From Eledone cirrhosa (taxonomy: Eukaryota): a stretch of DNA of 64,000 nucleotides. A program made the translations under genes and the position numbers. Location of the stretch: NCBI GenBank assembly GCA_964016885.1, contig OZ024742.1, forward strand, positions 183,396,001 to 183,460,000, given 5' to 3'. Positions 4,269 through 45,415 of this stretch are shown in pieces. The notes under the pieces are model-generated. The model worked only from the letters and a program-made list of their open reading frames with translations, was not told the DNA's origin and did no database searches. Positions within the stretch are counted from its first letter, which is position 1. Every line of letters starts with the position of its first letter.

Positions 4269-4390
4269 TAGGACATGATATGAAGGTTAAAAAACACTTG
4301 TGGATAGTGCAGTATATATATATATATATATATATATATATATGTATATATATCTACGTATATATATATGTATATATATATATATAGATG

Positions 4391-4441
4391 AGATTCTACA
4401 GGACTAGAACTGTTTCATTCTTTAGAAATCATCAGGAATCT
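4391..4441 (-). ncRNA. Hammerhead ribozyme motif, family A
   Basis: Exact reverse complement of 4485-4535. Confidence 0.8.
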
Positions 4442-4484
4442 GGGTATCAAAAAATAAGTATGGTATATATATTTTTTGATACCC

Positions 4485-4535
4485 AGATTCCTGATGATTT
4501 CTAAAGAATGAAACAGTTCTAGTCCTGTAGAATCT
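4485..4535 (+). ncRNA. Hammerhead ribozyme motif, family A
   Basis: AGATTC CTGATGA T-TTC-TAAA-GAA-T GAA ACAG-TTCTAGTC-CTGT A GAATCT: 6-bp stem I, 4-bp stem III, GUA site. Confidence 0.8.
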
Positions 4536-4775
4536 CATCTATATTAAAACTTTTATACTCTGCAATGTATTGAGTACCTTACTTACTGTGGTTACTTCCG
4601 ATTCAACCCGGAATAAGGTACTATATATATATATATATATATATAATGTAGGAGGTGAGTTTTATTGTAGTACAATAAAGCAATGCAGATATCGGATAAT
4701 AAACACTCTACAGTTTGTAGGACTGGAGTATACATAATATATAAGAACAAAAGATGGTTAAAAGAGTTCCATTTA

Positions 4776-41600: not shown

Positions 41601-43549
41601 GAAGTAAGCGGAGAATGTGAAGGTTGAAAGAGAAGGGTGGAGGAGGCATAGCAATAGTGAGGGGAGGGAGGGGAATGTAAGGGGTGAAGGAAGAGGAGCG
41701 GAAGGTATAAAGACATTGAGGGGGAATGTGAATGGCGAAGGAAGAGGAGGGGGATGAGATTTGAGAGTTATGTAGAGTATTAGTAAATGTAATGAGTAAG
41801 TGGATGGGGTGTAGAGGAGAGATGCTCTTAAATTGAGAGAGAAAGAGGGTGAGAGAGGGGAAAGACAGAGGTAGAGGTAAGGGGAGGGAATGAGGATGAG
41901 AATTGTGACACATGCATAGATAAATAGGTGAGTTGTTAGATAGAGCGATAGATACATAGATAGATAGCCAGATGGAGAGATAGACATATAGAAGGATAAA
42001 GAGGTATATATATATATATATATATATATATATATGTGTGTGTGTGTGTGTGTGTGTATATATAGTTTTTATCTTTTTTACACACACACACACATATATA
42101 TATATATATATAGAGAGAGAGAAAGAAAGAGAGGGAAAGAAGTGAGAGAGAAATAAAGCTTTATGAATGACGGAACGTATTAGATATTGTAGGAACAAAT
42201 GAAAGAAAGGGTAAAATGCAGACGTGGTTGTGGCGGTGGTAGCGGAGGTTGTGACGGTGTAGGTGTAGTGGTGAAAGAGAGAGTGAAAGAGGGGTGGAAT
42301 GAGGGGAAAAAGAGATAAAAGAGAAGACAAGAAAGAGTGAAATTCAATAAAGAGTAGTATTGAGAGAGAAAAAAAATGAGGCAGAGTAAGAGAAAAGAGA
42401 AAGGGTGTATGTGTAAGTGTAGGGAAAGAGCGACTGAGTGAGATATAGAGTATGTTAGCATAGAAATACGAAGGGGAGGATAGAGAAGCTATAGTGTTCA
42501 AGTAAGAGAAAGAGATAGAAAATGAGAGGGATTTGTTGGCGAGGGAAGAAGCAAAACGAATGTAAATCGAGCCGGTTTACAAAATCTACTGCTTGGTTTA
42601 TCCGGTAGATGCTATCCCATCGTTCCTTGCCAACTCGATCGTCTGGTCATCCATTAATATTCTATACCAACGAGGGAAGCTTAGCTAGTCCTACACCTTA
42701 TTATAGCAAAGAAATGACAGGCAAATAATTTTGATCGAGAAGAGGAGAGACTAATGGTTTAATGTCATTGTGTGAGTGTGTGTGTGTGCGTGTATATATA
42801 TATATATATATATATATATATGCATGTGTTTATATTCCATATTATATATGTCAATGTATATATGTGTGTGTATAAATATATATATATAATATATATATAT
42901 ATATATATATATATATATATATATAGGGCGGGTAAAATTCCCGAGATGGTTCTTTTATATATATATACTGGTAATAAGGTAATTAAGAAATCACTGACCT
43001 TCCTGCTTATAGTTGTTTATACTATATACATAACTATAAATAGTATTATTATTATATATATATATATATAATATAAGTACCAGTAATACACTGGGATAAT
43101 TGCTGGCCTTGTGCCAAAAGTAGAAACAATTATATATATATGGGTGTGTGTGTGTGTCGTTTTTGTTCCTATCACCTTTTATCAATCCGTTTATTTTCCG
43201 TTTCTCTCTAAATAAATAAATATGAATATATATATATTATATATTGTGACAGGGAAAATAAACGAATTGATAAAAGGTGATAGAAACAAAAACGAGAGAG
43301 TGAGAAAGAAACGTGAAAAGAATGAGATAAGGGAAAGAGAGAGAGAGAGAGCAAATATGTAGAGGGAAGTAGCTAAAAAATGTAAGCCAGAGAGGGAGAA
43401 AATATTTAGAGAAGGAAAAGGAAAGGCAGAGCAGCGTAAAGTGAAGGAAAGGGAAATAAAATATAGAGAAGGAAAAAGAAAAACTGAGAATGGAAGAGAG
43501 AGAGGAAAAAAGAAAAAGGTAAATATACAAAATAAAAAGAAAACCAGAG

Positions 43550-44475
43550 AAAACGAGAGAGAACAGAGAAAGCGAGAGAGAGAGCAGAGAAAGCGAGAGA
43601 GAATAGAGAAAGCGAGAGAGCGAGAGAGAGCAGAGAAAGCGAGAGAGAACAGAGAAAGCGAGAAAGAGCAGAGAAAGCGAGAGAGAGCAGAGAAAGCGAG
43701 AGAGAACAGAGAAAGCGAGAGAGAGAGCAGAGAAAGCGAGAGAGAACAGAGAAAGCGAGAGAGCGAGAGAGAGAACAGAGAAAGCGAGAGAGAGAGCAGA
43801 GAAAGCGAGAGAGAACAGAGAAAGCGAGAAAGAGCAGAGAAAGCGAGAGAGAGCGAGAGAGAACAGAGAAAGCGAGAGAGAACAGAGAAAGCAAGCGAGA
43901 GAGAGAGCAGAGAAAGCGAGAGAGAACAGAGAAAGCGAGAGAGAGAGCAGAGAAAGCGAGAACAGAGAAAGCGAGAGAGAGCCGAGAGAGAACAGAGAAA
44001 GCGAGAGAGAACAGAGAAAGCAAGCGAGAGAGAACAGAGAAAGCGAGAGAGAGAGAGAGCAGAGAAAGCGAGAGAGAACAGGGAAAGCGAGAGAGAGAGC
44101 AGAGAAAGCGAGAACAAAGAAAGCGAGAGAGAGCCGAGAGAGAACAGAGAAAGCGAGAGAGAGAACAGAGAAAGCGAGAGAGAGAGCAGAGAAAGCGAGA
44201 ACAGAGAAAGCGAGAGAGAGCCGAGAGAGAACAGAGAAAGCGAGAGAGAGAACAGAGAAAGCGAGAGAGAGAGCAGAGAAAGCGAGAACAGAGAAAGCGA
44301 GAGAGAGCAGAGAAAGCGAGAGAGAGCAGAGAAAGCGAGAGAGAGCCGAGAGAGCGAGAGAGAGAGCAGAGAAAGCGAGAGAGAGCCGAGAGAGCAGAGA
44401 AAGCGAGAGAGAACAGATAAAGCGAGAGAGAACAGAGAAAGCGAGAGAGAGAGAGAGAGAGAGAGAGAGAGAAAG
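43550..44475. repeat. Polypurine minisatellite (AGAGAAAGCGAGAGAGAAC/GC variants)
   Basis: About 19-23-bp units; almost no T on the plus strand. Confidence 0.95.
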
Positions 44476-45223
44476 AGACAGACAGCATGGAAGATAGAGA
44501 CAGAGAATAAACAAAGCAAGAATAGGAAAGCAGGATGGAGAAAGAGTAAAAGAAAGAGTGAGAAAAATATAATAAGAAGGGCGAAAGGAAGACTGAAATG
44601 AACCAATGAAATGTAAAAGGCTATGTTTAACCTTTGACACAGGAATGTTGTAAGGTAGGAAGGGGAGGGAGAGAGACAAGTAGACGGGGTGTAAGGCAGA
44701 GGTTAGGGATGTAATAAAATAAAAACTCAATTAGTGGCTTGTAATAAACAAATCATCTTTCTCTGTCACAGCTACAGACGTATATACATGTGCACACACA
44801 CACACGCACACGCACACACATACATATATATAAGGGTGTTCCCACAAAATGTATACACGTATTAGAATGCTGTTGAAGTGTGTATACATTTTGGGAGACA
44901 CTGTATATACACATAGATACATGCATACATATCTGTCTATCTATCTAACTATATATATGTGTCTATCTTTAAATAAAGAAATATATGTATGTTTATATGT
45001 ATGTATACATGTATGTATATATGTATATATATATATATACATATATATATATATATATATATATATATATATATATATATATGTATATATATATATATAT
45101 ATATATATATATAGTAATAATAATAAAATTGAAGACTAAAATCCAAAGAGAAGATCCCGTTAAGGGTGAAAGCAGCGATTCTTTGCTTAAACTTTAATCT
45201 GTTATTTTAATATATATATATAT

Positions 45224-45415
45224 AGGAACAAGTATGACCCCGACGGCAGAGCTCAAGCCGTTTCGGCAGCTAATTCTGGACTGAATTAGCCGTCGAAACG
45301 GTTTGAGCTCTGCCGTCGGGGTCATACTTGTTCCTATTACCCCCTCTACTACCCTAACTATTCAGTACTTTGGTGCGTTATGGTCCATGTGGTTCCTTAC
45401 CACATTTCATTCGTC
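45224..45415 (+). mobile_element. F3 hairpin element
   Basis: Same family; apex CTGGACTG as at 21047-21054. Confidence 0.85.

What the first reader, a model, noticed from the sequence alone, without database searches (positions are those of the whole stretch)
4385..45415. Fixed outer end and variable apex of the inverted arms imply a specific insertion mechanism
Seen: in F3 the short arm ends at TTCCTAT (or a 1-nt variant) into (TA)n in 7 copies, in A at CATCTAT (2 copies), in B at CTTATAT (2 copies), while the fold-back point differs in most copies. Inference: both nicked (TA)n target strands prime reverse transcription, one at the RNA 3' end and one at an internal UAU site just downstream of the ribozyme, and the two cDNAs join at their variable ends. 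Both arms cover the same sequence and span the cleavage site, so the template would be two RNAs (perhaps an HHR dimer) or a circular/concatemeric RNA. This differs from L1 twin priming. Inverted 5' pLTR pieces are known in PLEs; this regularity is what stands out.
Basis: partly seen in the sequence, partly recalled or inferred. Interest (0 to 1): 0.75.

Follow-up and report, generated by a model that had tools for sequence, protein, structure and literature searches.

The report
Penelope hairpins bounded by RNA start
These abundant DNA hairpins in TA repeats are the cut-short ends of Penelope-like jumping genes, a known pattern, and their fixed outer ends and bunched fold points suggest that both cut DNA strands likely copy one RNA from two set internal sites and run off what is probably the RNA's start.

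Summary
Observation confirmed; interpretation partly. The hairpins are head-to-head pLTR ends of autonomous Penelope-like elements (F3 and A carry Hydra-clade ORFs). An inverted copy with a one-sided tail, and priming of both strands at two internal sites, are published. Genome-wide, 6,769 F3 arms end at the fixed site and 6,954 read through it. Corrections: both ends are internal sites, not the RNA 3' end; family A has two short-arm sites; the UAU rule is not general; the apex is not freely variable. 208 of 245 F3 arms that reach it stop in a 12-nt zone with an edge 45 nt upstream of the predicted ribozyme cut. In family A the edge lies 30 nt behind a TATA box, often with an extra G. 153 of 179 pairs use one end site each (same-site pairs: 3); arms share alleles and length class. 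This favours one uncut RNA over two RNAs or a circle, with run-off cDNAs end-joined. No RNA data confirm the start site. The scan noted this architecture before in this genome, and the run-off idea in other genomes.

The parts
17291..17446 (-). F3 hairpin, tailed arm on minus strand, short arm ending at site E1
17625..17823 (-). F3 hairpin, older subfamily, 1-nt variant at E1
20997..21186 (+). F3 hairpin, young subfamily; short arm 20997-21058, tailed arm to 21186
26768..26926 (-). F3 hairpin, apex inside the small GCCGT hairpin
32775..32947 (-). F3-related divergent subfamily hairpin, tail cut short
35003..35194 (-). F3 hairpin
45225..45414 (+). F3 hairpin, same apex junction as 20997
48928..49032 (+).
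4387..4621 (+). Family A hairpin with full hammerhead motif; both arms pass the 5' edge
22418..22597 (+). Family A hairpin, apex at the 5' edge
4646..5065 (-). Family B hairpin with minimal hammerhead motif; short arm reaches the 5' edge
18424..18826 (-). Family B hairpin, both arms at the 5' edge
14303..14695 (+). Family C hairpin plus tail, same architecture
58346..60044 (+). Family E: long head-to-head pair that includes the endonuclease-coding end; one arm ends at E1, the other at E2
28427..32323 (+). Near full-length Penelope-like element with RT and GIY-YIG motifs, CX4CxxC linker (Neptune type), relative of family E; broken frames

Best explanation
The hairpins are truncated insertions of autonomous Penelope-like retrotransposons, likely formed when both cut strands of a TA repeat prime reverse transcription on one uncut element RNA at two fixed internal sites, after which the two copies probably run off the RNA's start and are joined end to end. 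Shown: parent elements with RT and GIY-YIG ORF; two internal end sites E1 and E2 (80 nt apart in F3) used one each; a sharp 5' edge of arm ends; blunt, 1-2 nt or templated-insertion joints. Taken from in vitro work on another PLE (PMC11167929): both strands are nicked and extended, starts are internal, uncut RNA is the template. Inferred: a protein dimer holds one RNA; the E2 cDNA displaces the E1 cDNA (PLE RT lacks RNase H, recalled); the edge is the pLTR transcription start, so most copies are dead-end run-off products primed near the RNA 5' end, while the minority of long pairs are primed in the downstream pLTR of a read-through RNA.
For: Parent: L100 holds a 718-aa ORF with RT and GIY-YIG motifs directly downstream of the F3 tail; L196 a 52% identical ORF behind the A tail. 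One site each: 107 E1/E2 against 1 E1/E1 and 1 E2/E2 of 125 F3 pairs; with more loci and four families 153 against 2 and 1, of 179 pairs, 23 unclassified; independent choice would give half. Either site can carry the long copy (L100, L084, L138 long from E1; L096 long from E2). Same template: minor subfamily allele in both arms 88 times, in one arm 10, permutation maximum 36; L096 arms identical over 723 of 723 nt. Same length class: 48 of the first 100 listed arms passing -49 lie in long-long pairs, tail-to-tail control 1, though only 37 of 245 arms pass -45. Edge: 208 of 245 arms end in -45..-34, against 31 of 276 in the 12 nt before and 6 of 37 in the 12 nt after; genome counts reaching -45, -46, -49 are 9,104, 5,346, 4,906. 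Edges in F3, A and B all fall at C|A. In A a TATA box starts at -30 in 15 and at -30 to -33 in 20 of 31 upstream sequences, and 7 of 10 arms that stop with a non-reference base have G there (p 0.002, or 0.016 after dropping one homology-explained and one repeated junction). Three of 18 loci examined show a jump from about -40 to another part of the element.
Against: No RNA evidence for the start site (no RNA run listed). F3 shows no extra-G signal (1 of 13 non-reference bases), its TATA-like motif is at -25 and is also part of stem II, and B has no TATA box at -30. The F3 edge coincides with the loop of a predicted hairpin. Most F3 ends lie 4-10 nt inside the edge, which needs trimming or several starts. 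The -45 count is inflated by homology and by an ambiguous junction form; for the plain form alone the drop is 80 to 54 in the first 100 listed. The matching control for A was spoiled by subfamily variants. Family E shows no edge in 6 pairs. A few insertions have arms that differ at a shared polymorphism (L113, L157, L158, L121). Two RNAs from one locus in an asymmetric dimer are not excluded. The test that E2 arms stall at E1 was not significant (9 of 16, p 0.07).
Confidence: 0.6

Rival explanations
1. Two-strand priming as above, but on two RNAs (a hammerhead dimer) or on a circular or concatemeric RNA; the first reader's model, with circles proposed for PLEs in PMC4209133.
For: Arms overlap and cross the predicted cut site. 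Stem III loops are palindromic in F3 and B. L100 spans more than one unit. A few arm pairs differ at shared polymorphisms. Divergence between the two L100 units (15 of 1,449 sites) is close to ageing level, so a circle is not excluded for long copies.
Against: A circle has no 5' edge, yet 208 of 245 arms stop at one. Two free RNAs would not force one-each use of sites (153 vs 3) or coupled length. In F3 an RNA starting at -45 lacks the first half of the ribozyme core. Uncut RNA was the main substrate in vitro (PMC11167929).
Confidence: 0.15
2. Same two-site priming on one RNA, but the edge is a structural or protein block to the RT, or a processed RNA end, not the transcription start.
For: The F3 edge sits at the loop of a predicted hairpin in the ribozyme's long stem II; the A edge at the first base of stem I. 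Ends spread over 12 nt. No G signal in F3.
Against: The edge lies at a different structural place in each family but always at C|A; TATA box at -30 and extra G in A. Arms that pass the edge do so in pairs, which a random stall would not give.
Confidence: 0.15
3. Self-priming or fold-back copying makes the inverted arm (published reading: self-priming on an antisense template, PMC3846280).
For: 15 of 78 junctions are symmetric and arm ends correlate weakly (rho 0.27-0.33); microhomology slightly above chance (mean 0.86 vs 0.63, p 0.023).
Against: Each arm can hold sequence the other lacks (35 vs 28 of 78); some pairs do not overlap at all (L031, L097, L098, L164, L190); 26 of 82 joints are blunt; fold-back does not explain two fixed outer ends used one each.
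Confidence: 0.06
4. The hairpins spread as whole units like MITEs, or are assembly fold-back artefacts.
For: High copy number; a few junctions recur up to 3 times in 78.
Against: 69 distinct junctions of 78; rare variants in one arm 66 times, in both 3; arms are unequal and continue into ORFs; contigs of public runs show loose ends at the same three places (one of these may be the source sample).
Confidence: 0.04

Closest known systems
Insertion unit of endonuclease-bearing Penelope-like elements (Craig et al. 2021, PMC8557442, passages and section 11; Arkhipova et al. 2013, PMC3846280, passages)
   Same: 5'-truncated copy with an adjacent inverted copy, tail at one end only, partial tandems, hammerhead motif in the pLTR, (TA)n targets; an Inr-like and TATA motif in the pLTR was noted for a rotifer element.
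   Different: Tail about 80 nt in F3 and B, 70-76 in A, 56 in E, against 30-40; most copies are stubs bounded by a sharp 5' edge; the 2013 paper reads the inversions as self-priming on an antisense template.
Poseidon element PAc in vitro (Frangieh et al. 2024, PMC11167929, parts 1-2 of 4 read plus passages)
   Same: Both target strands nicked and extended; two internal start sites that delimit the tail; uncut RNA used; predicted dimer.
   Different: Starts there are not homologous to the target and show no strand difference; here ends share 1-5 nt with (TA)n and the two strands use different sites. The text seen does not derive the inverted copies or discuss run-off at the RNA start.
Hydra clade of C-terminal EN+ PLEs (PMC8557442 section 11)
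   Same: F3 ORF has RWR, DKT, CxCX5C linker, CxxC and CxH; inserts in (TA)n.
   Different: Unit about 3.5 kb rather than under 3 kb; ribozyme core is a U3-A8 variant with a long stem II; no tree was built.
L1 twin priming (recalled)
   Same: Second target strand primes internally; inverted piece joined with little homology; some pairs here do not overlap.
   Different: No poly(A); both sites internal and fixed; arms usually overlap; either arm may be the long one.
Minus-strand strong-stop DNA of LTR retroelements (recalled)
   Same: Priming near the RNA 5' end would give a short run-off cDNA; occasional jumps from the edge are seen.
   Different: Primer is nicked target DNA, two cDNAs are made and inserted; a regular transfer to the 3' end is not shown.

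Membership tests
EN+ Penelope-like element | Single ORF with RT and C-terminal GIY-YIG endonuclease | tested here: met
   718-aa ORF with RT motifs and a GIY-YIG core behind the F3 tail; Pfam gave no hit for it, so this rests on motifs
EN+ Penelope-like element | pLTRs from partial tandems | tested here: met
   L100: partial unit, full unit, terminal repeat
EN+ Penelope-like element | Adjacent inverted 5'-truncated copy | tested here: met
   125 head-to-head pairs among 325 arms
EN+ Penelope-like element | Tail at one end only | tested here: met
   153 of 179 pairs; length 56-85 nt, longer than the published 30-40
EN+ Penelope-like element | Hammerhead ribozyme in the pLTR | tested here: inconclusive
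   Core motifs by eye and a three-way fold; no Rfam match on the right strand; cleavage untested
Hydra clade | RWK, DKT, CxCX5C linker, CxxC and CxH, no CCHH | tested here: met
   RWR 37, DKT 117, CxCX5C 572, CxxC 670, CxH 698; one cysteine inside the GIY-YIG core
Hydra clade | Insertion into (TA)n | tested here: met
   Simple-repeat tract of 6 nt or more on both sides in 105 of 125 pairs
Hydra clade | Generally under 3 kb | tested here: not met
   3,118 bp between E1 sites in L100 despite a 427-bp deletion; a tendency in the paper, not a strict criterion
Hydra clade | Placement in the RT tree | not tested
   No reference proteins fetched
MITE | Uniform unit with terminal inverted repeats at both ends | tested here: not met
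   69 distinct junctions of 78; one-sided tail
MITE | Target-site duplication | tested here: inconclusive
   Hidden in (TA)n; the empty-site search gave only overlaps and shared repeats
L1-type twin priming | Poly(A) 3' priming and a variable internal second site | tested here: not met
   Both ends internal and fixed
Non-LTR retrozyme | Head-to-tail monomers from cut site to cut site | tested here: not met
   Copies are head-to-head; 1 of 325 arm ends lies exactly at the cut site

The most novel reading that the evidence does not exclude
Penelope-like elements have a hidden LTR-like cycle: the RNA runs from a start site in the pLTR to the ribozyme cut, both target strands prime near its 5' end and make strong-stop cDNAs, failed events leave these hairpins, and a transfer to the 3' end through the roughly 45-nt repeat between start site and cut yields full-length copies, pLTRs and partial tandems.
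Probability: 0.15. Interest if true: 0.8.

Novelty: new variant of a known kind. Interest (0 to 1): 0.45.

Why it matters
How PLEs make their inverted and tailed insertions is named as open in PMC8557442, and the published reading (self-priming, PMC3846280) does not fit these copies. Thousands of young insertions give in vivo rules that link the 2024 in vitro result to the genomic architecture: one site per strand, one template, and a stop at a common 5' edge. An intact young ORF with a 150-nt RNA makes each step testable. It also means that most copies of these families are likely promoter-less dead ends rather than a separate mini-element.

Tried and rejected
DNA search of the genome with the F3 tail gave nothing (common words are skipped). 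Rfam scans gave only repeat-driven microRNA noise and no hammerhead on the right strand. Pfam missed the F3 ORF. No RNA holder listed; contigs cannot show starts. The empty-site search could not test target duplication or whether (TA)n is added during insertion. A genome-wide count of same-site pairs was not obtained, so pairing rests on fetched loci. The -5 control for family A was confounded by subfamily variants. E2 arms stalling at E1: 9 of 16, one a duplicate hit, p 0.07, not used. My first reading of F3 as Neptune-type was dropped after the motif check. A supposed edge in family E at reference position 360 was rejected as a likely match to a related family; family C lacked a long reference. 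A universal UAU rule was rejected. A circle could be neither shown nor excluded from L100. Papers 10.64898/2026.07.22.740005 (abstract, passages) and PMC2377424 (passages) gave no account of inverted arms. Supplements of the papers were not opened and may bear on the novelty claim.
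Full report
Observation. The window lies in a 3.0-Gb genome. The F3 end motif occurs 6,769 times, control 0, and the read-through form 6,954 times, so short and tailed arms are nearly one to one. I fetched 100 stretches of 10 kb and 120 search loci of 3 kb, mostly from one chromosome, many centred on young F3 or A copies; counts below are after removing duplicates by genome position. 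Positions are relative to the predicted F3 ribozyme cut.

What the hairpins are. Long copies show that F3 is the terminal repeat of an autonomous element. L100 holds an inverted arm, a partial unit, a full unit with an open 718-aa frame, and a terminal repeat; L096 is a near-full copy with a 723-nt inverted arm. The protein has RT motifs, a GIY-YIG core, and the RWR, DKT, CxCX5C, CxxC and CxH marks listed for the Hydra clade. Family A leads into a 52% identical frame. Family E is related to the Neptune-type element at 28427-32323. The F3 repeat folds into a hammerhead-like three-way junction with a U3-A8 core and a long stem II, kept across subfamilies; Rfam does not recognise it, and cleavage is untested.

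Outer ends. Of 325 F3 arms, 128 end at or within 3 nt of site E1 (homology ends at +19) and 166 at or near E2 (alignment ends +96 to +105; the shared TAT is +97 to +99). Both sites are internal: past E2 the element continues into the ORF in F3, A and E. Homology with (TA)n is TAT at both F3 sites, but TA at the A tail end and a single T at the commoner A short-arm site. So the ends are fixed by position, helped by 1-5 nt of pairing, not by a UAU rule or by the RNA 3' end. This matches the in vitro result for an anole PLE: both strands cut and extended, two internal starts that delimit the tail, uncut RNA preferred.

Pairing. Of 125 F3 pairs 107 are E1/E2, 1 E1/E1, 1 E2/E2 and 16 have a decayed or other end. 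With more loci and families A, B and E the counts are 153, 2, 1 and 23 of 179. Loci were chosen by either end motif, which does not favour mixed pairs; independent choice would give half mixed. 75 of the 325 arms had no adjacent partner: long copies, diverged partners, single-arm insertions. Either site can prime the long copy.

One template or two. At six subfamily-diagnostic sites the arms agree 561 times and differ 11 times; the minor allele is in both arms 88 times, against at most 36 in 1,000 permutations. Rare variants are in one arm 66 times and in both 3 times, so the arms have aged separately. This shows a common source but not a common molecule, since subfamilies may have been active at different times. 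Length class adds more: 48 of the first 100 listed arms that pass -49 are in long-long pairs, though only 37 of 245 arms pass -45; among 101 adjacent pairs 75 have both arms in the edge zone, 4 both long, 2 mixed and 20 a shorter arm. One RNA primed twice explains all three couplings; overlap of the arms then needs strand displacement, which is inferred. A few discordant pairs (L113, L157, L158, L121) allow some two-RNA events.

The apex. It is variable only within a zone. 208 of 245 arms end in -45..-34, against 31 of 276 in the 12 nt before and 6 of 37 in the 12 nt after. Genome-wide, 9,104 arms reach -45, 5,346 reach -46 and 4,906 reach -49; an ambiguous junction form inflates the first step, which is 80 to 54 for the plain form in the first 100 listed. 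Contigs of a public run step up 14-fold in depth at this place and have loose ends at -45, E1 and E2 (it may be the source sample). Families A and B also have edges, and all three fall at C|A. In A a TATA box begins 30 nt upstream in 15 of 31 loosely selected upstream sequences (20 of 31 at -30 to -33), and 7 of 10 non-reference bases before the edge are G, as copying a cap would give. F3 shows no G excess, its TATA-like motif is at -25, and B has none. A pLTR promoter is known for Penelope (PMC2377424) and TATA plus Inr-like motifs were noted in a rotifer pLTR. I read the edge as the likely transcription start, at about 65%.

Joints. Of 82 young pairs (both arms 95% or more like the reference), 26 are blunt, 30 have 1-6 nt of homology (20 of them 1 nt) and 26 have insertions, many copied from nearby element sequence. 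Homology is slightly above a permutation null (0.86 vs 0.63, p 0.023). This fits end-joining of two cDNA ends. The E1 arm reaches further upstream in 35, equally in 15, less far in 28 of 78, and some pairs do not overlap, which rules out simple fold-back. Three of 18 loci examined for structure show the tailed cDNA stopping near -40 and resuming elsewhere in the element (L087, L152, L154): template jumps from the edge occur, but none seen went to the cut site.

Mechanism. Likely: the element protein, as a dimer, nicks both strands of (TA)n; each 3' end primes on the same uncut RNA, one at E1 and one at E2; near the RNA 5' end both cDNAs run off within 60-145 nt, are trimmed and joined, and host repair fills in. 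Priming in the downstream repeat of a read-through RNA gives long pairs. Shown are the ends, pairing, edge and joints; the dimer, displacement and start site are inferred.

Comparison and novelty. The architecture is typical of PLEs and the priming chemistry is published. Eight searches of the held library found no paper giving the one-site-per-strand rule in genomes or run-off at the RNA start; subscription papers and supplements were not seen. Earlier notes of this scan report the same architecture in this and other genomes, nine in ten pairs tailed on one arm, and run-off at a capped start in two other genomes. I had noted the edge idea before reading them; they are not independent proof. 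The Hydra assignment and the 2013 paper came from those notes as leads and were checked here.

Verdict. The added rules make an open mechanistic question testable. Interest 0.45.

Noticed in passing
genome-wide, family A motif: Strong strand skew (5,033 vs 2,349) suggests one or more large head-to-tail arrays of the family A ribozyme region, possibly retrozyme-like.
   Followed up: no
window 29126-29755: The Neptune-type element carries an asparagine-rich, (AAT/AAC)n-like stretch in its coding region, recalling the N-rich inserts described for rotifer Penelope elements (PMC3846280).
   Followed up: no
L100:5800-5895: Hammerhead variant with U3-A8 core and a stem II closing about 35 nt of extra hairpin; kept in old and young subfamilies; not recognised by Rfam.
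   Followed up: partly
L122, junction near 4925-4974: A 12-nt piece of the cDNA end is repeated four times at the apex, as from repeated slippage.
   Followed up: partly
L087, L152, L154: Tailed stubs joined in direct orientation to the middle of the ORF or the 3' untranslated part: template jumps from the 5' edge.
   Followed up: partly
window 13628-14246: Long palindrome with no tail and conserved outer motifs; related copies flank several fetched loci; may be a true MITE-like fold-back element.
   Followed up: no
window 4387-5065, 22418, 48928 and many loci: Different PLE families pile into the same (TA)n tracts, back to back.
   Followed up: no
window 13232-13445 and 21391-21590: A further abundant family with a canonical minimal hammerhead motif and a fixed tail end.
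   Followed up: partly
window 57729-58217: Family D: hairpin followed by a direct partial repeat of the same end, a short tandem-plus-inverted unit.
   Followed up: partly
window 25195-25560: Diverged F3 relative interrupted by a small element with inverted ends.
   Followed up: no
run X5 contig 19: A second organism code holds the same F3 region, including a fold-back contig.
   Followed up: no
window 9224-9423: Assembly gap of 200 N beside a TA tract.
   Followed up: no
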